A program made the position numbers and the translations under genes. This document shows, piece after piece, positions 208 through 15,511 of a stretch of 18,879 bases of DNA. The notes below the pieces were generated by a model. That model ran no database searches. It saw only the letters and a list, made by a program, of their open reading frames with translations, and was not told where the DNA came from. The stretch lies in the UHGV virus genome UHGV-1689020; one strand, written 5' to 3'. Within the stretch, counting starts at the first letter, position 1, and each line of letters opens with the position of its first letter. The stretch comes from a virus.

Positions 208-2121
208 ATGAGCAAAGTAAAAATCGGTGAATTAATAAACTCACTTGTTAGCGATGTTGAGTCAATAGATAACTCTGACCGTCCTCAAGGGGAAAAAACA
301 AAAAAAATAAAGGCTGTTGCATTAAAATTTAAAAATGCATTATTTAATGATAAGCGAAAGTTTAGGGGGAAAGGATTAGAAAAAAGAATTACAGCCAACA
401 CCTTCAATGCCTATATGAGCAGGGCCAGAAAACGGTTTGATGATAAACTTCATCATAGCTTTGAAAAAAATATACATCGCCTATCTGAAAAGTATCCTTT
501 ATATAATGAGGAGCTATTGTCATGGCTTTCTCTACCTGCTGCCGATATTCGCCAGAGAATGTCAGCTTTACAGGCAAAATTAAAATTAATTCTCCCTTTA
601 TCAGAAGATTTATCTAATATCAGAATTGGTGATAACAAAAGTCATAATAAGTTATTAAAATTATCAAATAAATATAAAGAGTGGCAATTCGCCATATCTG
701 ATTTAACTAGCGATAACTGGAAAGATAAGCGCGATTATTTATATAAATTACTACAGCAAGGATCTGCCTTACTTGAGGAGTTGAATCAGCTAAAAGTTAA
801 CCATGAGATTCTCTATCATCTTCAACTAAGCCCTGCCGAACGCGCATCTATCCAGCAACGATGGGCGGACGTTCTGCACAATAAGAAACGTAACGTGGTG
901 GTCATTGATTACCCTAAATATATGCAAGCTATTTACGATATTATAAATAGCCCTGCTACATTAAATAATCTAAACACTCGTTCAGGTATGGCTCCTTTGG
1001 CATTTGCACTTGCTGCATTGTCAGGAAGACGAATGATTGAGATTATGTATCAAGGTACATTTACTGTTTCTGGTAAGTATACCGTTGATTTTTTAGGCCA
1101 AGCAAAAAAAAGAACTTCTGATGATATAACCAGAAAAATATATACATTATGCGAAGCAAAAACATTTGTTTATTTAATAAATGTACTTCGCTCATGCCCA
1201 GCAGCATCTGATTTTGATGATGTCGTTAAAGGTTATGGAGATAACGACACACGCTCTGAAAACGGACGGATTAATGCCATATTAGCAAAGGCTTTTAACC
1301 CGTGGGTTAAATCATTTTTCAAAGATGACCGCCGTGTTTATAAAGATAGTCGTGCTATTTATGCCCGTATTGCGTATGAAATGTTTTTCCGCGTAGATCC
1401 TCGTTGGAAAAACGTAGATGAGGATGTTTTCTTTATGGAAATTTTAGGCCATGACGATGAAAACACTCAATTACACTATAAGCAATTCAAGCTGGCCAAC
1501 TTCTCAAAGACATGGAGGCCAAATACTGGAAACGAAAATACCAGGCTGGAAGCATTGCAGCAGCTTGATGACGAAATGCCAGGATTCGCCAGAGGAGATG
1601 CCGGGGTTCGTCTGCATAACACAGTTAAGCAGCTGGTAGAGCATGACCCCTCTATAAAAATCACGAACAGCACTCTAAGAGCATTCAAATTTAGCCCTAC
1701 AATGATTAGTCGATACCTGGAATTTGCTGCTGATGCTCTGGGGCAATTTGTTGGCGAAAATGGACAATGGCAGCTGAAAATAGATTCTCCAGAAATCGTT
1801 ATGCCTGACGAAGAAGAGCTGGAAGCAATACCTGAACAGACGGATGAATTATCAGAGGATGACGATCTGGATGACGACGAAATTGAGATAGAGGAAGAGG
1901 AAGAGGAAGAGGAAGAGGAAGAGGAAGAGAGCGTAGAAGAACAGCAACCGCCCGCGCCTTCTTCACCTGTATCTAAGCCGGTATTTAAGCCTGTGAGAAA
2001 TATTGGTGATGGCTCATACGTTGTTGAGTTTCATTATAATGGCCAGAATTATGCTTGGTCCGGCAGTGCAAACAGCCCTATATCAGCAATGCAGTTAGCA
2101 TGGCTGACATATTTCGGATAA
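208..2121 (+). CDS. telN: protelomerase (telomere resolvase), N15 TelN-like
   Basis: 637-aa ORF; N-terminus MSKVKIGELIN...FNDKRKFRGKGLEKRITANTFNAYMSRARKRFDDKLHHSF and long internal stretches match my recollection of N15 TelN nearly residue for residue; acidic C-terminal linker; AGGAGAGG Shine-Dalgarno before the ATG; adjacent to the telO-like palindrome. Confidence 0.93.
   Translation: MSKVKIGELINSLVSDVESIDNSDRPQGEKTKKIKAVALKFKNALFNDKRKFRGKGLEKRITANTFNAYMSRARKRFDDKLHHSFEKNIHRLSEKYPLYNEELLSWLSLPAADIRQRMSALQAKLKLILPLSEDLSNIRIGDNKSHNKLLKLSNKYKEWQFAISDLTSDNWKDKRDYLYKLLQQGSALLEELNQLKVNHEILYHLQLSPAERASIQQRWADVLHNKKRNVVVIDYPKYMQAIYDIINSPATLNNLNTRSGMAPLAFALAALSGRRMIEIMYQGTFTVSGKYTVDFLGQAKKRTSDDITRKIYTLCEAKTFVYLINVLRSCPAASDFDDVVKGYGDNDTRSENGRINAILAKAFNPWVKSFFKDDRRVYKDSRAIYARIAYEMFFRVDPRWKNVDEDVFFMEILGHDDENTQLHYKQFKLANFSKTWRPNTGNENTRLEALQQLDDEMPGFARGDAGVRLHNTVKQLVEHDPSIKITNSTLRAFKFSPTMISRYLEFAADALGQFVGENGQWQLKIDSPEIVMPDEEELEAIPEQTDELSEDDDLDDDEIEIEEEEEEEEEEEEESVEEQQPPAPSSPVSKPVFKPVRNIGDGSYVVEFHYNGQNYAWSGSANSPISAMQLAWLTYFG
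1891..1929 (+). repeat. (GAGGAA)n hexanucleotide tandem repeat encoding the poly-Glu tract of TelN
   Basis: six and a half perfect tandem GAGGAA units, translated as the E-run in ...EIEIEEEEEEEEEEEEEESVEE. Confidence 0.9.
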
Positions 2122-2132
2122 AGCATACGGTA

Positions 2133-2165
2133 AAGGCACCGAATTATCGGTGCCTTGTTGTGTGG
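2133..2165 (+). terminator. rho-independent terminator candidate after telN
   Basis: AAGGCACCGA-ATTA-TCGGTGCCTT, a 10-bp perfect stem with 4-nt loop, 12 nt after the telN stop, followed by GTTGTGTGG (T/G-rich, not a clean U-tract). Confidence 0.55.
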
Positions 2166-2166
2166 T

Positions 2167-2331
2167 CTACCTCGCCTGCCCCTTTTCGTCCTCATCCAAC
2201 TTTCTGATGGCCGTAGAATCAATACCCGCCGCCATACACACATCAGATGCAACAAACCACGGTTCGCCGTTAATCATCACTACACGAACCTGATGCTCTT
2301 CCTGAAAGGAAAAGACTGCTAACGCGCTCAT
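2167..2331 (-). pseudogene. truncated Bro-N/KilA-N domain antirepressor-like ORF (54 codons)
   Basis: hand translation of the minus strand gives MSALAVFSFQEEHQVRVVMINGEPWFVASDVCMAAGIDSTAIRKLDEDEKGQAR*; the F.F....VR....GEPWFVA.DV...G motif is the N-terminal signature of Bro-N antirepressor domains, but the ORF stops mid-domain; AAGGAGG upstream; its ATG overlaps the stop of the upstream ORF (ATGA); below the length cut-off of the supplied ORF track. Confidence 0.5.
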
Positions 2332-2561
2332 TCAGCCTCCTTATCGTGCAGCAATTGCGACGAGAGCGATGCTGAATAACCCTGTGCTTCGTGTGTTAGC
2401 TCACACGCAATTTGAAGGAGTTTCCCTGCTTCTGAGAGATAAATCGACGCCTCACAACTGGAGATTGTCCGATGGGCTGATGATACGAGCGCATAGACCT
2501 GAGCCAGACGTTCATCCAACGATTCCAGCAGGCCAACAGTGTTCATTTTTACCTGATTCAT
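2328..2561 (-). CDS. hypothetical small helical protein, middle gene of the anti-immunity-type operon
   Basis: 77-aa ORF; GAGGTGG upstream of the ATG; ATGA overlaps with both neighbouring ORFs indicate translational coupling. Confidence 0.55.
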   Translation of the reverse strand: MNQVKMNTVGLLESLDERLAQVYALVSSAHRTISSCEASIYLSEAGKLLQIACELTHEAQGYSASLSSQLLHDKEAE

Positions 2562-2722
2562 GCAGCCACCTCGCGCACCGGAATACGGGCAGACAATACC
2601 AGGACAAACCGGCTGGCGAACTGGCGACGAGCTTCCCGTTCAGATGACGCGATGGTGGAAAGATGATGGATGTGTGACTTTTTGTCTGTGCGAACGATTG
2701 CCGCAAATTTGAATTTGAACAT
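2558..2722 (-). CDS. small basic protein, possibly Icd-like (first gene of the anti-immunity-type operon)
   Basis: hand translation MFKFKFAAIVRTDKKSHIHHLSTIASSEREARRQFASRFVLVLSARIPVREVAA* (54 aa); GGAG 9 nt upstream of the ATG; stop overlaps the ATG of the next ORF; not in the ORF track (below cut-off); the Icd assignment is from position and faint similarity recalled from memory only. Confidence 0.45.
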   Translation of the reverse strand: MFKFKFAAIVRTDKKSHIHHLSTIASSEREARRQFASRFVLVLSARIPVREVAA

Positions 2723-2770
2723 GGTATGCACTCCGTTTAATTGGTCGTGCTACCACCAGAGTTCCTACGC

Positions 2771-2940
2771 TCTATATGGCGGTAGCCCAGACGGGGGTAG
2801 GAATACCGGTAAACGAAGAAACCGGCCAGCTAAAAGCTGCCCCATCTGAGCCACCATAAATTTGGTGTACGCAGATTTTACACACAAAAAAACACGCTGG
2901 CGCGTGTTGTGCGCTTCATTTACTCGGGTTCCTACGCCCG
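2771..2940 (-). ncRNA. candidate C4/CI/CA-like antisense regulatory RNA and leader region
   Basis: on the minus-strand transcript, GGGCGUAGGAACCC (from + 2926-2939) and GAGCGUAGGAAC (from + 2761-2772) are direct repeats flanking UUCCUACCCCC (from + 2793-2803), which is complementary to both (10/11 and about 9/11); an intrinsic terminator lies between the first repeat and the complementary element; exact RNA ends unknown. Confidence 0.3.
2881..2908 (-). terminator. rho-independent terminator inside the leader of the anti-immunity-type operon
   Basis: minus-strand reading AACACGC-GCCA-GCGTGTT followed by TTTTTTTGTGTG (7-bp GC-rich stem, 4-nt loop, U-tract). Confidence 0.55.
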
Positions 2941-2967
2941 GCTACGGGATTTACCGTAGCGGAGTAA

Positions 2968-2997
2968 ACTTTACCGTCAAAACGACGCGCACGTCAA
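2968..2997 (-). promoter_or_regulatory. candidate sigma70 promoter for the leftward anti-immunity-type operon
   Basis: minus-strand TTGACG (from + 2992-2997), 18-nt spacer, TAAAGT (from + 2968-2973); -10 is weak, so the call is tentative. Confidence 0.3.
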
Positions 2998-3016
2998 TAA
3001 TTTGCAAAGACATTTT

Positions 3017-3036
3017 ACCCCGTGACCAGTCACGGG
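3017..3036. promoter_or_regulatory. palindrome family B copy 1 (CCCCGTGAC-CA-GTCACGGGG), operator-like site upstream of the candidate promoter
   Basis: 20-bp 9-2-9 palindrome; its core CGTGAC-NN-GTCACG recurs at 7574-7587 and 14960-14973; lies between the stop of the 3099-3386 gene and the candidate -35. Confidence 0.6.
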
Positions 3037-3098
3037 GACAGGTGTTTTTATAGTTTGCTTGAACGAGTGATCAGAAGTTGATCGTTAATCAAAGGCCA

Positions 3099-3386
3099 TT
3101 ATTGATTAAGAGATTGGAAATACCTAACTAACTTACCGGCATCATCACATTTTTCTTTATCTTCGTCCTTAACATAGCCGCGACAAAAGGCTGAATAAAA
3201 TTTTGCATTTTCAGAAGCAAAAGCAGCCGTCGAAAGGAGCAGCTCTTTGCATGACTCTTTTGATGCAGCATCGGGATTATTTTTACATGCAAGGTCCGCT
3301 GATGAGTTAATAACAGAAATGCTATCTTCCTGGGCATAAACCGCAGCAGAAAAGGCAAAACATAAAACAAAAATAAAACTCTTCAC
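3099..3386 (-). CDS. small secreted or periplasmic cysteine-containing protein, function unknown
   Basis: ORF in track as 3099-3410; preferred start is the GTG at 3384-3386, preceded by AGGAGA at about 7 nt; predicted signal peptide MKSFIFVLCFAFSAAVYA then QEDS...; mature part of about 76 aa with 4 Cys. Confidence 0.6.
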   Translation of the reverse strand: MKSFIFVLCFAFSAAVYAQEDSISVINSSADLACKNNPDAASKESCKELLLSTAAFASENAKFYSAFCRGYVKDEDKEKCDDAGKLVRYFQSLNQ

Positions 3387-3413
3387 TTTATCTCCTGTAA
3401 CAGTCATCACAAT

Positions 3414-4199: not shown

Positions 4200-7100
4200 T
4201 TACCCAAAGAAAGCGCCCTGCTCTTCGTAGCTGCATGAGCTATTCCCCGTAATGTATTCACGTAACCGCCGCAGCTCATTGCTGGAAAGGTGATCCATGA
4301 ACTCTGTGAGGTACAGAGATGCAAACGTCATAGCTATGCTGGCTGATGACCATGATGACATAGTGGCCAACTCCTCACTGGAAAGCGCACTCATCGCCCA
4401 GGACTCAGGTACAGCCACTGGCAACACGGCCAAAGCCTCAGAAATTACTGAATGAGGGGCGTTTTGAACCTGCTCGTTTGTGGATCGCGTTTTATCATCC
4501 ATATATATATTGAGATCCAAATCGCGATCCATTTCGATGGCTGTCTTCTCGGCTTTACGCGTTTTTAGGGTTAGGCCATCTTTCTGACGCTGAACAAGAA
4601 TATCCAGCATAAATGCCGCTGATTCAGGCTCAACAAAACGCAAGGTTGGACGCTTATCGCCGTCTCTGCCGCGACGTTTACCTGTTTTAAGGCCAAGAGA
4701 GTCGCAAATGTTTTTAAACAACGCTTCCGGCACTTTAGGCTTCCCTTTTGGCGTCATAAAACCACCAATGTGCAGAACGTTATTCAACAGGTCACGGCGT
4801 TCGGCTGTCATGAGGTTATCTCGAGCGAATTTGAGACGCTCCTGAGTCGCCTCGCCGGTCATAGTCTCAGGGTTGATACCGCAGTCGATAAAGTACTGCC
4901 GGAGAGTTGCTGATTTAAGCGCATAGAAACCGCGCGCCCCGACTTCAACAGTAGGAGTAGCTTTTACCTTGTGATCGATTATTCCAGGGAATTTAGTTTT
5001 AAAGACATCATCAGCCTGCTCGCGAGTCATCGCGGTCACTACAAAATATTGCCACTGTCCCGCCTGACGGTATGCGTAGGTAAAATTGATGGCTGCTTCT
5101 TCCCGGTCGTAACGACGAGCTGTTACCTCATCTAAAAGCATTGTTTCATAGCGGCGAACTTTGTCTCGAGCACCATCGAAATAGAATTTCAGCGTGCCTT
5201 CTTCAACCGGTAGTTTCAGTTCGTTTTCAATATCCCAGCGGACAAGTTTTGCCTGTTCTTCAAGCGTCAGCGCGCGTTTTTTTAGCAGTTTTTCACGCTC
5301 TGATTCTTGTGGAGTTTCTGTATTGAGGTGCAGATCCAGTGTCTGTTCCCACACAATATCCCGCGCTTCTTTACGCAGATCTTTACCGATATCATTCGCA
5401 GCATAATCGGTGGCCAGCGGTGATACCTTATAACCGTCGCTGTGCATGATGCAGATCATGTTGCTGGCGTAGTCGTTACGCGCAGTCGCTTCAATTGCGG
5501 CTGCTTTAATTTTCATCCTGGTAAAGTCGGTATTGGCCACCCCCATTGATATACGGTCGCCATCGAAAACGACATCCGTAAGTTCACCGTTCATACCTGC
5601 GGTAGCAAGCAATGCCTGGGCGAATGCTCGTTCTATTTTTTGCGGGTCAGTTTCACGTTTTGCACGAGCTTTATCAAAGCCGATAATAAATTCTTTTGCT
5701 GTACGGTCGCGGCGTAGCATTTGCACTGCGTCGCTGGGTACAACTTCACCACAGAACATGCCGAAATGACGGTCAAAATGTTTTTGCTCAATCGACACGC
5801 CGGATGAAATAGACGGGCTATAAATCAGGCCGTCGTATTTTTTGACCATCTTTTTCGGTTGATTGGTAAATGCTTCAACTTCTGGCTCTGGTTTGTTTTT
5901 CTGGTTTACACACAGAAATTTCTTACCAGGAAAATGCATTCTCAGGGTGGCTGTCACATCTTCTGCAAAGGTGGAGCTGTCGGTGGCCAACATGATTTTT
6001 TCGCCATCCGATACAGCTTTCACCACCTCGGTCATGATGCGATCTTTTTCTGTATAAAAAACCCGGATTGGCTCACCTGTTTCGCGGTTGCGAACATCAA
6101 CAGGTAATTCAATTACGTGGATCTGCAGCCATGCCGGTAAACCTAGTTCTTCACGGCGTTTCATAGCCAGTTCAGCCAGGTCAACCAGCAGATCGTTCGC
6201 ATCAGCATCCACCATTATTGGGTGTTGTTCCGTTCTGGCCAGCGCGTCAATTAGCGTATTGAATACAGCCACTGGGTTTTCCATAGCCCGACCGGAAAGA
6301 ACGGCACGTAGCCCTTGTGTGGCCTCGTCAAAGCCAAAATAGTCGTGCTGGCGCATCAACGGTTGCCAGCAGTTTTTAACAATCGAGTTTATGCAGATGG
6401 TCAGTTTACTGGCGTATGGAGCCATTTCCTGATAGCCAGGGTCCTGATAGTGCAGGATATCGGCTTTTACACCTTTTCCTTCTGTCATCATTTCCCACAG
6501 GCCACCAATAAGGGAGACACGGTGAGCAACAGAGATACCACGTTCTGAGCTATGCATTAACGGTCGTAACAATCCAGTAGATTTGCCGGAACCCATACCA
6601 GCACGGACGATGACTATCCCCTGTAGTGATTGCACGTACTTCAGGAGATCATCGGTCATTACCGAAGTTTCAAAACGCTTATAGGTGATATGTTGAGGGC
6701 GTTTATTGGGATCAGTTATGCGTTCGCTGAAAGAGCGCGGAGCCTGGGCAATACGGCACTTTTTATTCAGGCGACGGGCAATGTGGTCTTTTACCGTAGC
6801 GCGATAGATATTTTCCAGTCCCATTTCACGCAGAACGATGCAGAACATGTTAAATAAATCTGACGGACTGTTAGGAACCGGGCAGGTTAGCATGCCAATA
6901 TCCACCGCTCTCAGCAGCTCTTTGGCAAAAGTACGACGGTTATCCCGCTTAATTGTCTTCAGGCGGTTGAGCGTCAGAGATAGCAAATCAGTACCGGTTT
7001 TCAGGCGGTTTGCTGTTGCAAATAGTTGACGTGCTGTTTCACGAAGTCCACGTAGTTTGTGCAGGTCGTTGAAGTCACTGCACTCCATTTGCGGATCGTC

Positions 7101-8195
7101 TTCAAAAGTTGGATAGACGCAGCGGACATCGTTGAATTTCGATAAGATTTCATAGCCAGTCCGCAGGCCGGTATTCCCTTTTCCTTCTGTGGCAGATTTC
7201 CGGTCATTATCCAGTGCGCAGGTGATTTTTACCGCCGGGTACATGTTTACCAGTTGTTCCACAACATGAACCATGTTGTTAGCGGATACAGCGACAACCA
7301 CAGCGTCAAAGCGTTTATCTTTTTTCGTGGCAAGCCAGATGGATGCACCAGTAGCAAAACCTTCTGTAACAGCGATGTTTTGCGCCCCTTTCAGCTCACC
7401 GATAACAAAGCAGGCACCGACGAAATCGCCGCTGGTTACTGCGCTGGTCTGGTATTTCCCACCTTGTTTGTCGATTCGCTGCCAACCCACAATACGACCA
7501 TCGTAACGACCGTCCAGGTGAGCCAGAGGGATAGCCATATATGTGGTTGGTCCCCGACTCCATTTCGCACTGTCGTGACTGGTCACGCGACGCACATCAC
7601 ATGAACTAAAAACGTCACGAATACCTTTTTTAATCGCATATGGCCATGAGCCGTCTTCAGCCGGAGCATGTTCCCACGCGCTGTGGAATGCCAGCCATCC
7701 CAGCAAACGTTCATGGTCCATTTGGTTGTTTTTCAGGTCATTAATTCGTTTTTGTTCTTCACGGCGACGACGTGCTTCGGCCTGACGTTCTATTCTTTCC
7801 CGTTCTTCTTCCGGTTGTGCGACCACGGTCGCATTATTCCGTTGTTGCTCACGGCGATATTCAGAAAACAGGAAGGAGAAACCGCTCCATGAGCCAGCAT
7901 CGCTGCCTTTATGGACGAAGTTAATGAACGGGTAATCAATCCCTTTGCTGTGTTCCAGCCGGGAGTAAATTTCTACGCGTCCTTTCAGGCTCTTTTCGAG
8001 AGCTTCTGGAGATGTTTTATTGTATGAAGAGTAACGCTCAACCCCCCCGCGAGGGTTGAGTTGGATGTTGTCGGAACAGGCAGGCCAGTTGATACCAGCC
8101 ATCTGTGCCAGCTCGGTTAGTTCATCCCGTGCTGCTTCAATTAGCGAGAACGGATCGCTGCCAAAGCGATCCGCATAGAAATCGTTTAATGTCAT
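4200..8195 (-). CDS. repA: multifunctional replication protein RepA (primase-helicase), N15 RepA-like
   Basis: 1331-aa ORF; Walker A motif GMGSGKST in the central part; size, orientation and position between telN and cB match N15 repA as I recall it (about 1300 aa). Confidence 0.88.
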   Translation of the reverse strand: MTLNDFYADRFGSDPFSLIEAARDELTELAQMAGINWPACSDNIQLNPRGGVERYSSYNKTSPEALEKSLKGRVEIYSRLEHSKGIDYPFINFVHKGSDAGSWSGFSFLFSEYRREQQRNNATVVAQPEEERERIERQAEARRRREEQKRINDLKNNQMDHERLLGWLAFHSAWEHAPAEDGSWPYAIKKGIRDVFSSCDVRRVTSHDSAKWSRGPTTYMAIPLAHLDGRYDGRIVGWQRIDKQGGKYQTSAVTSGDFVGACFVIGELKGAQNIAVTEGFATGASIWLATKKDKRFDAVVVAVSANNMVHVVEQLVNMYPAVKITCALDNDRKSATEGKGNTGLRTGYEILSKFNDVRCVYPTFEDDPQMECSDFNDLHKLRGLRETARQLFATANRLKTGTDLLSLTLNRLKTIKRDNRRTFAKELLRAVDIGMLTCPVPNSPSDLFNMFCIVLREMGLENIYRATVKDHIARRLNKKCRIAQAPRSFSERITDPNKRPQHITYKRFETSVMTDDLLKYVQSLQGIVIVRAGMGSGKSTGLLRPLMHSSERGISVAHRVSLIGGLWEMMTEGKGVKADILHYQDPGYQEMAPYASKLTICINSIVKNCWQPLMRQHDYFGFDEATQGLRAVLSGRAMENPVAVFNTLIDALARTEQHPIMVDADANDLLVDLAELAMKRREELGLPAWLQIHVIELPVDVRNRETGEPIRVFYTEKDRIMTEVVKAVSDGEKIMLATDSSTFAEDVTATLRMHFPGKKFLCVNQKNKPEPEVEAFTNQPKKMVKKYDGLIYSPSISSGVSIEQKHFDRHFGMFCGEVVPSDAVQMLRRDRTAKEFIIGFDKARAKRETDPQKIERAFAQALLATAGMNGELTDVVFDGDRISMGVANTDFTRMKIKAAAIEATARNDYASNMICIMHSDGYKVSPLATDYAANDIGKDLRKEARDIVWEQTLDLHLNTETPQESEREKLLKKRALTLEEQAKLVRWDIENELKLPVEEGTLKFYFDGARDKVRRYETMLLDEVTARRYDREEAAINFTYAYRQAGQWQYFVVTAMTREQADDVFKTKFPGIIDHKVKATPTVEVGARGFYALKSATLRQYFIDCGINPETMTGEATQERLKFARDNLMTAERRDLLNNVLHIGGFMTPKGKPKVPEALFKNICDSLGLKTGKRRGRDGDKRPTLRFVEPESAAFMLDILVQRQKDGLTLKTRKAEKTAIEMDRDLDLNIYMDDKTRSTNEQVQNAPHSVISEALAVLPVAVPESWAMSALSSEELATMSSWSSASIAMTFASLYLTEFMDHLSSNELRRLREYITGNSSCSYEEQGAFFG
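4481..4531. other. candidate replication origin element inside the 3' part of repA
   Basis: 9-bp inverted repeat TGGATCGCG ... CGCGATCCA flanking a 33-bp AT-rich spacer containing (AT)5 and three GATC sites within about 50 bp; the N15 ori is reported to lie within the 3' end of repA (recalled from literature). Confidence 0.35.
7574..7587. repeat. palindrome family B copy 2 (CGTGAC-TG-GTCACG), inside repA coding sequence
   Basis: exact 14-bp core shared with 3019-3034 (inverted centre) and 14960-14973. Confidence 0.6.
7818..7833. repeat. palindrome family A copy 1 (TGCGACC-AC-GGTCGCA), sopC/centromere-like, inside repA coding sequence
   Basis: 16-bp 7-2-7 palindrome identical to copies at 10261-10276 (inverted) and 16787-16802; differs from the F sopC SopB site TGGGACCACGGTCCCA (recalled) at one position per arm. 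Confidence 0.65.
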
Positions 8196-15225: not shown

Positions 15226-15307
15226 AAATTGACCGTCAAGTTTGAGTTTTAACCTGTAATTTTATACAGTATAAATAACCTTTTTTAGTTAAATGGTATG
15301 AGATCTA

Positions 15308-15511
15308 ATGTCTGAAGCAGCCGTATCAACTCTTGAACAACTCGATTCAAATTTAAGAGATATTGACGCCGTTCTGGATCTGGTTAGCGTCACCCTGGCT
15401 TCTCCAGAAGCCAGCCTACATATTGGTGAGGTTTCACGACTCATCAACATGTCGCGAGAGATTGCCCAGCATTGTCAGAAAACTATCGCTGTTGAGCGTT
15501 CACATCATTGA
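15308..15511 (+). CDS. hypothetical small acidic protein
   Basis: 67-aa ORF after an AT-rich intergenic region; weak Shine-Dalgarno; convergent with the toxin-antitoxin pair. Confidence 0.4.
   Translation: MSEAAVSTLEQLDSNLRDIDAVLDLVSVTLASPEASLHIGEVSRLINMSREIAQHCQKTIAVERSHH

What the first reader, a model, noticed from the sequence alone, without database searches (positions are those of the whole stretch)
2167..2331. Bro-N antirepressor-like gene ends mid-domain after 54 codons
The ORF begins with a textbook Bro-N signature (FSF...VRVVMINGEPWFVASDV) but stops at TAG just after DEDEKGQAR, immediately before the telN terminator hairpin. Either the antirepressor has been truncated by deletion or a nonsense change, which would alter how this prophage escapes CB repression, or this family has a genuinely short N-domain-only form. 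It is translationally coupled to two upstream small ORFs (ATGA overlaps at 2558-2561 and 2328-2331).
Basis: partly seen in the sequence, partly recalled or inferred. Interest (0 to 1): 0.5.

Follow-up and report, generated by a model that had tools for sequence, protein, structure and literature searches.

The report
Deletion stump of phage antirepressor gene antB
The 54-codon gene is the leftover front end of a roughly 260-codon phage regulatory gene (antB) that lost 738 bases in one deletion; this stump is the commonest form of the gene in E. coli and Shigella linear phage-plasmids, so it is an ordinary gene remnant with a mildly interesting population history.

Summary
ORF 2331..2167 (minus strand) encodes 54 residues that match only positions 1-41 of the 96-position Bro-N profile. 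It overlaps antA by ATGA and stops 10 nt before the shared telN/immA terminator hairpin.

It is the 5' stump of antB (N15 gene 30; 257-264 aa when intact). A 738-bp deletion at a 3-nt GGG microhomology removed codons 52-258 and about 115 nt of 3' untranslated sequence. The last three codons and the TAG come from former non-coding DNA. There is no nonsense mutation, and no C-terminal piece lies elsewhere in the window.

The same junction occurs in phage PhiR46_1, in 13 of 17 complete RefSeq E. coli N15-like plasmids and on at least 1000 contigs. So the "same-length homologues" are one allele, identical by descent.

Three lines of evidence argue for dispensability:
- Other E. coli lineages carry independent antB deletions (588 and 645 bp) and frameshifts.
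- A common sublineage has a further frameshift inside the stump.
- Variants of the stump hit otherwise invariant residues at the neutral rate.

In Klebsiella the gene is almost always intact. The CA-RNA region, icd, antA and a LexA-boxed antC-like gene are all intact here, so a large effect on escape from CB repression is unlikely. The finding is ordinary, with a modest population-genetic twist.

The parts
2167..2331 (-). antB stump: 54 codons plus TAG. Codons 1-51 are the original 5' end of antB (N15 gene 30 homologue). Codons 52-54 (QAR) and the stop are read from former 3' non-coding DNA.
2180..2182 (-). Deletion junction: the 3-nt GGG microhomology (ORF nt 150-152) where 738 bp were lost. 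The lost segment is antB codons 52-258 plus about 115 nt downstream.
   Evidence: alignment to YDC107_1 locus L002 and to L032
2133..2156 (.). Bidirectional intrinsic terminator hairpin (10-bp stem, UAAU loop) shared by telN (plus strand) and the immA operon (minus strand).
   Evidence: dG -17.8 and -24.9 kcal/mol, z -4.7 and -5.0; phiKO2 annotation 'putative bidirectional'
2328..2561 (-). antA homologue, 77 aa, intact. Its stop overlaps the antB start (ATGA).
   Evidence: 66% identity to N15 gp31; phrog_6301 E 1.7e-36; phrog_10889 'anti-repressor'
2558..2731 (-). icd-like cell-division inhibitor gene, intact. PGAP uses the ATG at 2722, giving 54 aa.
   Evidence: NF033153 E 1.5e-18; 91% identity to the C-terminus of N15 gp32
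2775..2861 (-). C4-type antisense RNA, the counterpart of N15 CA RNA.
   Evidence: RF01695, 73.6 bits, full length
2887..2960 (-). isrK-like leader RNA element ending in an intrinsic terminator (2908..2891).
   Evidence: RF01394, 62.5 bits
2968..2997 (-). Sigma-70-like promoter candidate for the operon (TTGACG-18-TAAAGT). This is a consensus match only.
208..2121 (+). Protelomerase telN, convergent with the operon.
   Evidence: (synteny in N15, YDC107_1, phiKO2 and PhiR46_1)
15254..15511 (+). LexA box CTGTAATTTTATACAG (15254..15269) followed by a 67-aa antC-like ORF (15308..15511). This would be an independent, SOS-controlled antirepressor route.
   Evidence: AntC role taken from PMC4488713 and PMC3121763

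Best explanation
The ORF is the 5' remnant of antB, the last gene of the N15-type secondary-immunity (immA) operon (promoter, isrK-like leader/terminator, C4-type CA RNA, icd, antA, antB). One 738-bp deletion between two GGG triplets fused codon 51 to non-coding DNA just upstream of the shared telN/immA terminator. Translation now runs three more codons to a fortuitous TAG. This much is shown. The product keeps only the first three strands and two helices of the Bro-N fold and lacks the remainder of that domain and the whole conserved helical C-terminal domain, so it cannot do what AntB does (inferred from the model and from conservation). Because the Shine-Dalgarno sequence and the ATGA coupling to antA are untouched, the peptide is probably still made whenever the operon is derepressed, but as a by-product (inferred). 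The remainder of the regulatory circuit is intact: CA RNA, Icd, the documented antirepressor AntA, and a LexA-controlled AntC-like gene. The element should therefore still control CB repression and SOS induction (inferred). The deletion allele is inherited by descent, has recombined onto at least two diverged immA haplotypes, and is now the commonest antB state in Escherichia/Shigella N15-like phage-plasmids. There antB is repeatedly lost, whereas Klebsiella relatives keep it.
For: Intact orthologues are 264 aa (N15 gp30), 260 aa (phiKO2 gp27) and 258 aa (YDC107_1), in the same position between antA and telN. The breakpoints are mapped with a 3-nt microhomology and a 738-bp loss. No C-terminal fragment lies elsewhere in the window. 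Bro-N profile coverage is 1-41/96 here against 1-96 in intact proteins. The AF2 model of an intact protein has 10 Bro-N secondary-structure elements followed by a helical domain, and the stump ends after element 5. The top PDB fold hit, 4ye7 (a baculovirus protein N-terminal domain), aligns over 105 columns. The intact C-terminal 189 codons are under strong constraint: 90 synonymous against 30 non-synonymous codon differences between YDC107_1 and N15, and 13:1, 17:1 and 11:0 among E. coli alleles. The same junction occurs in PhiR46_1 and in all nine other 54-aa-allele ("D1") loci examined. Short alleles outnumber long ones 13 to 4 in complete RefSeq E. coli and 17 to 9 in PLSDB. The exact protein is on at least 1000 contigs and in 6394 index blocks, against 774 and 508 blocks for the commonest intact alleles. 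Dispensability is supported by four results. A sublineage (P0138, 203 contigs) has a 4-bp deletion at codons 15-16 that frameshifts the stump. Independent deletions of 588 bp (61-aa allele, 166 blocks) and 645 bp (87-aa allele, 41 blocks), plus frameshifted long alleles, exist in the same context. Of 18 distinct substitutions in stump variants, 7 hit columns that are invariant in intact AntB, which equals the neutral expectation of 38%. One haplotype carries 0 synonymous and 3 non-synonymous changes. PY54 lacks antB, and pJAZZ-OCmin lacks genes 30-32 yet is maintained. In PLSDB, 174 Klebsiella plasmids have the AntB C-terminal domain against 175 with antA.
Against: The stump ORF is intact, well conserved and still coupled to antA in the great majority of copies. 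Between the two main haplotypes it differs by 2 synonymous and 0 non-synonymous changes, while antA differs at 17 codons. That pattern could reflect constraint rather than youth. No expression or phenotype data exist for either the stump or intact AntB, whose function is described as 'not elucidated'. The statement that loss has little effect therefore rests on indirect evidence. Database counts are biased towards clinical E. coli and Shigella. I could not establish whether PhiR46_1 was recovered as virions.
Confidence: 0.82

Rival explanations
1. The 54-residue protein is a functional N-domain-only micro-protein kept by selection, for example as a decoy or partner for other Bro-N antirepressors or as a modulator of AntA.
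For: It is extremely common and the ORF is almost always intact. It keeps a strong Shine-Dalgarno sequence and the ATGA coupling. Only synonymous differences separate the two major haplotypes. All three independent deletions retain at least 28 N-terminal codons, and the two that fuse to the antB C-terminal tail, D2 (588 bp, 61-aa allele) and D3 (645 bp, 87-aa allele), are in-frame.
Against: A 203-contig sublineage frameshifts it at codon 15-16 and persists. Substitutions fall on residues invariant in intact AntB at the neutral rate. Its last residues come from non-coding DNA. It holds only half of the Bro-N fold. The other deletion alleles share only residues 1-28 with it and have unrelated tails. 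Klebsiella relatives show no short form.
Confidence: 0.1
2. Loss of AntB is adaptive in Escherichia/Shigella, and the stump is simply what selected deletions leave behind. Candidate pressures are a more stable plasmid-prophage state, escape from a host system that senses AntB, or room for cargo.
For: There are at least three independent large deletions plus frameshifts in one genus. The deletion allele outnumbers intact ones. Where the gene is intact it is under strong purifying selection, and it is nearly always kept in Klebsiella. The 54-aa ("D1") allele is found on at least two diverged immA haplotypes, which is consistent with spread by recombination.
Against: The same pattern arises from relaxed selection plus hitch-hiking with successful plasmid or host clones and database sampling bias. 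No phenotype is known for AntB. Intact alleles are still common in E. coli, at 774 and 508 blocks.
Confidence: 0.25
3. The short ORF results from a point nonsense mutation, a sequencing error or a mis-assembly in this window.
Against: The identical junction is present in complete genomes from many hosts and countries and in at least 1000 contigs. About 738 bp are physically absent, and the flanks align on both sides.
Confidence: 0.01

Closest known systems
N15 gene 30 product (AntB) and its orthologues phiKO2 gp27 and YDC107_1 AUO37525
   Same: It holds the same operon position, after antA with an ATGA overlap and convergent with telN. Residues 1-52 are 62% identical to N15 gp30 and 94% identical to YDC107_1, with the same Bro-N N-terminus.
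   Different: It has 54 aa instead of 257-264. It lacks Bro-N profile positions 42-96 and the whole conserved C-terminal helical domain.
N15 immA anti-immunity operon (Pa, CA RNA, icd, antA, antB), which resembles P1 immI (c4-icd-ant) and the P4 immunity RNA
   Same: The isrK-like leader with terminator, the C4-family RNA, icd and antA are all present and intact in the same order. The DNA also matches the P4 cI region.
   Different: The last gene is reduced to a stump, and the 3' UTR is shortened to 10 nt before the terminator.
Yersinia telomere phage PY54 (and vB_YenS_P840)
   Same: These are functional telomere phages that naturally lack antB while keeping an antA that blocks lysogeny (PMC4488713 and PMC10612081).
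   Different: In PY54 the operon is dispersed and no antB remnant is reported. Here the operon is intact and a 5' stump remains.
Bro-N / KilA-N type phage antirepressors (PHROG 'anti-repressor Ant' families; PDB 4ye7 Bro-N fold)
   Same: The N-terminal sequence signature matches (phrog_2977 E 2.6e-18; phrog_130 E 4.9e-17). An intact relative models as the 4ye7 fold.
   Different: Only about half of the fold is encoded, so it is not a complete domain.

Membership tests
Pfam Bro-N domain (PF02498) | Sequence score above the curated gathering threshold | tested here: met
   30.7 bits against a cutoff of 25.6, E 4.8e-7
Pfam Bro-N domain (PF02498) | A complete domain of about 96 profile positions (about 105 structured residues) | tested here: not met
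   Only profile positions 1-41 are present, whereas intact relatives cover 1-96. The model shows that 5 of 10 secondary-structure elements are retained. The 4ye7 alignment needs 105 columns.
AntB (N15 gene 30) orthologue group | Synteny: last gene of the immA operon, start overlapping the antA stop, convergent with telN | tested here: met
AntB (N15 gene 30) orthologue group | N-terminal sequence homology | tested here: met
   tblastn against N15 gp30 residues 1-52 gives 61.5% identity, E 1.5e-16. YDC107_1 residues 1-63 give 81% identity.
AntB (N15 gene 30) orthologue group | Full length of 257-264 aa with the conserved C-terminal domain (residues about 69-258) | tested here: not met
   738 bp are absent, and there is no C-terminal match anywhere in the window. 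It is therefore a remnant of the gene and not a functional member.
AntB (N15 gene 30) orthologue group | Auxiliary antirepressor activity | not testable with these tools
   Only the annotation wording in the phiKO2 record is available. The literature says the function is not elucidated.
N15-type immA operon | C4/CA-type antisense RNA preceded by a leader with an intrinsic terminator | tested here: met
   RF01695 at 73.6 bits, RF01394 at 62.5 bits, and a terminator at 2908..2891
N15-type immA operon | icd and antA present and intact | tested here: met
   NF033153 E 1.5e-18; antA 66% identical to N15 gp31; PHROG hits
Gene remnant / pseudogene | Derived state relative to intact orthologues, with a mapped lesion | tested here: met
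   The junction is mapped against two intact alleles, and the outgroups N15 and phiKO2 are intact.
Gene remnant / pseudogene | Relaxed constraint on the remaining sequence | tested here: inconclusive
   For relaxed constraint: the frameshifted sublineage, the neutral placement of substitutions and the 0 synonymous / 3 non-synonymous haplotype. Against: 2 synonymous / 0 non-synonymous between the major haplotypes. The numbers are small.

The most novel reading that the evidence does not exclude
antB is being actively purged from Escherichia/Shigella N15-like phage-plasmids. At least three independent, near-complete, in-frame deletions plus frameshifts were favoured, either because AntB destabilises plasmid-state lysogeny or because it is sensed by a host defence in these hosts but not in Klebsiella. 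Alternatively, the translationally coupled N-terminal stub that every deletion spares has acquired a role of its own. Either reading would give the uncharacterised AntB a testable, host-dependent function.
Probability: 0.25. Interest if true: 0.5.

Novelty: new member of a known kind. Interest (0 to 1): 0.28.

Why it matters
For annotation, the widespread 54-aa 'BRO family protein' of E. coli and Shigella linear phage-plasmids should be read as a deletion remnant of antB and not as a short antirepressor. For biology, the contrast between repeated loss in Escherichia/Shigella and near-universal retention under strong purifying selection in Klebsiella offers a natural experiment. It gives a handle on the still-unknown function of AntB in telomere-phage immunity. 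By itself the locus changes nothing about how the immA system is understood.

Tried and rejected
- The first protein search with the 54-aa query returned only 16 mostly short proteins, because the word index biases retrieval. It could not be used for long-versus-short frequencies, so I re-queried with an intact AntB and used index-block and contig counts instead.
- A PDB sequence search with intact AntB found nothing. The fold was assigned through an AF2 model and Foldseek. The model has only moderate confidence (mean pLDDT 64.5; Bro-N part 65-88; C-terminal domain low).
- The BLASTP tool found no AntA/AntC similarity. A Smith-Waterman test with shuffles did find one.
- Mardanov & Ravin 2007 (PMC1951935), Ravin 1999 and a 2026 preprint on phage-plasmid heteroresistance are not held. 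AntB and AntC roles therefore rest on secondary citations and on the phiKO2 record.
- No paper was found on PhiR46_1 or ECOR13, so I cannot say whether a phage carrying this allele forms virions.
- My first un-aligned flank comparison ('downstream' and 'upstream' columns) was invalid because of indels. It was replaced by a MAFFT-based comparison.
- I considered that in-frame deletions imply selection. Only two of the three are informative, giving p of about 1/9, which is not significant.
- The 66-aa allele (P0005), a larger deletion that removes the terminator, comes from a single metagenome contig at 2.2x coverage. I gave it no weight.
- Nonsense mutation and assembly artefact were rejected.

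Full report
**1. What is in the sequence**

The window is an N15-like (Ravinvirus-type) linear phage-plasmid of Escherichia/Shigella. It is 99.9-100% identical over the tested 900 bp to plasmids from E. coli and Shigella sonnei.

telN lies at 208..2121 on the plus strand and repA at 8195..4200 on the minus strand. Between them, on the minus strand, lies a complete N15-type secondary-immunity (immA) operon:
- a promoter-like site at 2997..2968;
- an isrK-like leader at 2960..2887 ending in an intrinsic terminator;
- a C4-family antisense RNA at 2861..2775;
- an icd-like gene at 2731..2558;
- an antA homologue at 2561..2328;
- the ORF in question at 2331..2167.

The ORF has 54 codons, the ATGA overlaps are at 2561..2558 and 2331..2328, and an AGGAGG sits 5 nt before the start. 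The Bro-N match passes Pfam's threshold but covers only profile positions 1-41 of 96. A strong hairpin at 2156..2133 begins 10 nt after the TAG. In phiKO2 the equivalent hairpin is annotated as a putative bidirectional terminator. Since telN ends at 2121, it serves both convergent transcription units.

**2. What it is**

The orthologous position holds a 264-aa protein in N15 (gene 30), 260 aa in phiKO2 (gp27, annotated as similar to the 'auxiliary anti-repressor AntB') and 258 aa in E. coli phage YDC107_1. All three span the full Bro-N profile and then continue with about 150 more residues that match no Pfam family.

Aligning the window to YDC107_1, and to the closest intact allele found (L032, whose first 51 residues are identical to the stump), shows the lesion. 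The left flank matches through ORF nt 152. The right flank resumes 738 bp (737 bp in L032) further on. The two overlap in a 3-nt GGG, at window 2182..2180. The deletion removed codons 52-258 and about 115 nt of 3' untranslated DNA.

Codons 52-54 (QAR) and the TAG are read from that former non-coding DNA. The same AGGTAG is present, untranslated or as read-through, in loci that keep this segment. So this is a deletion and not a nonsense mutation. tblastn with five intact AntB proteins finds no displaced C-terminal piece in the window, and the three frames between the stop and telN are empty.

**3. What was lost**

An alignment of 16 intact AntB proteins from Escherichia, Citrobacter, Salmonella, Enterobacter, Klebsiella and Pseudocitrobacter has three parts: a conserved N-terminus (residues 1-27), a hypervariable mosaic segment (about 28-68) and a nearly invariant remainder (69-258).

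In that remainder, synonymous codon differences far outnumber non-synonymous ones. The counts are 90:30 for YDC107_1 against N15, and 13:1, 17:1 and 11:0 among E. coli alleles. Intact antB is therefore a real gene under purifying selection.

An AlphaFold2 model has mean pLDDT 64.5, with 65-88 in the Bro-N part and low values in the C-terminal part. It gives b1-b3, a1, a2, b4, b5 and a3-a5 for the Bro-N domain, followed by a helical C-terminal domain. Its best PDB match is 4ye7, the N-terminal domain of a baculovirus protein, aligned over 105 columns. The stump ends after a2, so it holds half a domain and none of the conserved part.

**4. Is it a 'natural short form'?**

The identical junction is found in phage PhiR46_1 from ECOR13 and in every other 54-aa locus fetched. 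Counts of short against long alleles:

| Sample | Short allele | Long allele |
|---|---|---|
| Complete RefSeq E. coli N15-like plasmids | 13 | 4 |
| PLSDB Escherichia/Shigella plasmids | 17 | 9 |

The exact protein sequence is on at least 1000 contigs and in 6394 index blocks. The two commonest intact alleles occupy 774 and 508 blocks.

Four observations argue that the stump is not maintained for a function:
- **A further frameshift is tolerated.** A sublineage seen on 203 contigs (244 blocks) carries an extra 4-bp deletion at codons 15-16. It frameshifts the stump to an immediate stop, yet the lineage persists.
- **antB was destroyed independently in other lineages in the same genomic context.** One is a 588-bp in-frame deletion at a TTA microhomology, giving a 61-aa allele (89 contigs, 166 blocks). 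Another is a 645-bp deletion at AA, giving an 87-aa allele (41 blocks). Frameshifted long alleles also exist. These alleles share only residues 1-28 with the stump.
- **Substitutions do not avoid conserved positions.** Among 18 distinct amino-acid substitutions in stump variants, 7 fall on columns invariant in intact AntB. That is 39%, against 38% expected if constraint were absent.
- **One haplotype has drifted.** The ETEC plasmid (L022), whose variant is seen on 148 contigs, has 0 synonymous and 3 non-synonymous changes.

Against this, the two major haplotypes differ by 2 synonymous and 0 non-synonymous changes in the stump. They differ at 17 of 77 antA codons and at 41 of 192 nt in the RNA region. 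I read this as a young allele that has recombined onto diverged immunity cassettes. The numbers are too small to exclude constraint.

**5. Consequences for the phage**

The literature available here says the following:
- AntA is the antirepressor. Its expression raises N15 plasmid copy number, and the PY54/P840 antA blocks lysogeny.
- AntB's function 'has not been elucidated', and PY54 lacks antB altogether.
- An N15-derived vector lacking genes 30-32 is maintained.
- N15 prophage induction depends on a separate LexA-controlled antirepressor, AntC.

In this window antA, icd and the RNA elements are intact. A consensus LexA box (CTGTAATTTTATACAG, 15254..15269) precedes a 67-aa ORF (15308..15511). 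That ORF is homologous to the LexA-boxed sequence between N15 genes 47 and 48.

The suggestion that the truncation changes how the prophage escapes CB repression is therefore not supported. At most an auxiliary input is lost. This step is inference, because no experiment on AntB was accessible.

**6. The wider pattern**

In PLSDB, tblastn with AntA finds 175 Klebsiella and 27 Escherichia/Shigella plasmids. The AntB C-terminal domain is found in 174 Klebsiella plasmids but in at most 16 Escherichia plasmids, some of them spurious partial hits.

antB is thus almost always kept in Klebsiella and repeatedly lost in Escherichia/Shigella. Relaxed selection combined with hitch-hiking and sampling bias is the simplest explanation. 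Host-specific counter-selection of AntB is an open possibility, to which I give about 0.25. I found no paper that describes this.

**7. Verdict**

The 'nonsense' and 'genuinely short form' branches are not, and the proposed functional consequence is doubtful.

The feature is a gene remnant within a well-known operon: ordinary, but currently annotated misleadingly as a 'BRO family protein'. It carries a modestly interesting signal of recurrent, host-specific loss. Interest is 0.28, and the novelty class is new member of a known kind.

Noticed in passing
window 15254..15511 (+): A consensus LexA box (CTGTAATTTTATACAG) lies 38 nt upstream of a 67-aa ORF. The ORF is homologous to an unannotated, LexA-boxed ORF between N15 genes 47 and 48, so it is probably antC. 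It is also a paralogue of AntA (ungapped Smith-Waterman score 77 over 52 residues, z 10.3, 0 of 2000 shuffles), although the BLASTP tool reported nothing.
   Followed up: partly
Intact AntB alignment A2 (e.g. L002 3174..3950; L020, L021): Residues about 28-68, inside the Bro-N domain, form a hypervariable mosaic cassette, with at least four unrelated versions within E. coli alone. They are flanked by a conserved N-terminus and a nearly invariant C-terminal 190 residues. This may be a specificity determinant. The 54-aa allele in this window (deletion D1, 738 bp) derives from the 'SDVCMAAGIDSTAIRKLDEDEKG' version, and the 61-aa allele (deletion D2, 588 bp) from the 'NDICNAL' version.
   Followed up: partly
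L005-L008 (61-aa allele) and L009-L012 (87-aa allele), gene at 3001..3186 / 3001..3264: These are independent antB deletion alleles in other E. coli N15-like elements: 588 bp at a TTA microhomology and 645 bp at AA. Both fuse the N-terminus in-frame to the last 17-26 residues. In the 87-aa allele the antB stop is also mutated (TAG to TAT), so translation reads on to the same ...GQAR end.
   Followed up: yes
L029 1501..1611 (P0138): This sublineage of the 54-aa allele (deletion D1), found in E. coli and S. sonnei on 203 contigs, has a further 4-bp deletion at codons 15-16 that frameshifts the stump. Gene callers then report a 36-aa ORF starting at Met19.
   Followed up: yes
window 2328..2960 compared with L004, L015, L016 and L023: The 54-aa allele (deletion D1) sits on at least two diverged immA haplotypes. 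antA differs at 17 of 234 nt and the isrK/C4 RNA region at 41 of 192 nt, while the stump differs at only 2 of 165 nt. This implies recombination that swaps the immunity RNA/antA cassette next to a conserved stump.
   Followed up: partly
P0006 and P0007 (ENA contigs of 610 and 537 bp): Proteins with unrelated N-termini are joined at the conserved NGEPWFVA motif to the same stump tail ...EKGQAR. They are either recombinants between different Bro-N genes or chimeric assemblies.
   Followed up: no
window 1870..1960 (+), inside telN: A run of GAA/GAG codons encodes a poly-glutamate tract (EIEEEEEEEEEEEEEES) near the TelN C-terminus. The antisense strand gives spurious repetitive ORFs.
   Followed up: no
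window 3099..3410 (-): A 103-aa ORF with a hydrophobic, signal-like N-terminus lies between the immA operon and repA. A gene at a similar position in PhiR46_1 is annotated as a 'Spackle exclusion protein'. Homology between the two was not tested.
   Followed up: no
L002 3951..4122 (YDC107_1) and equivalents in L005-L012: E. coli-lineage elements carry about 170 nt between the antB stop and the terminator, against about 20 nt in phiKO2. YDC107_1 annotates a 60-aa ORF there with no family match. About 115 nt of this segment was removed by the deletion in this window. Its function, if any, is unknown.
   Followed up: no
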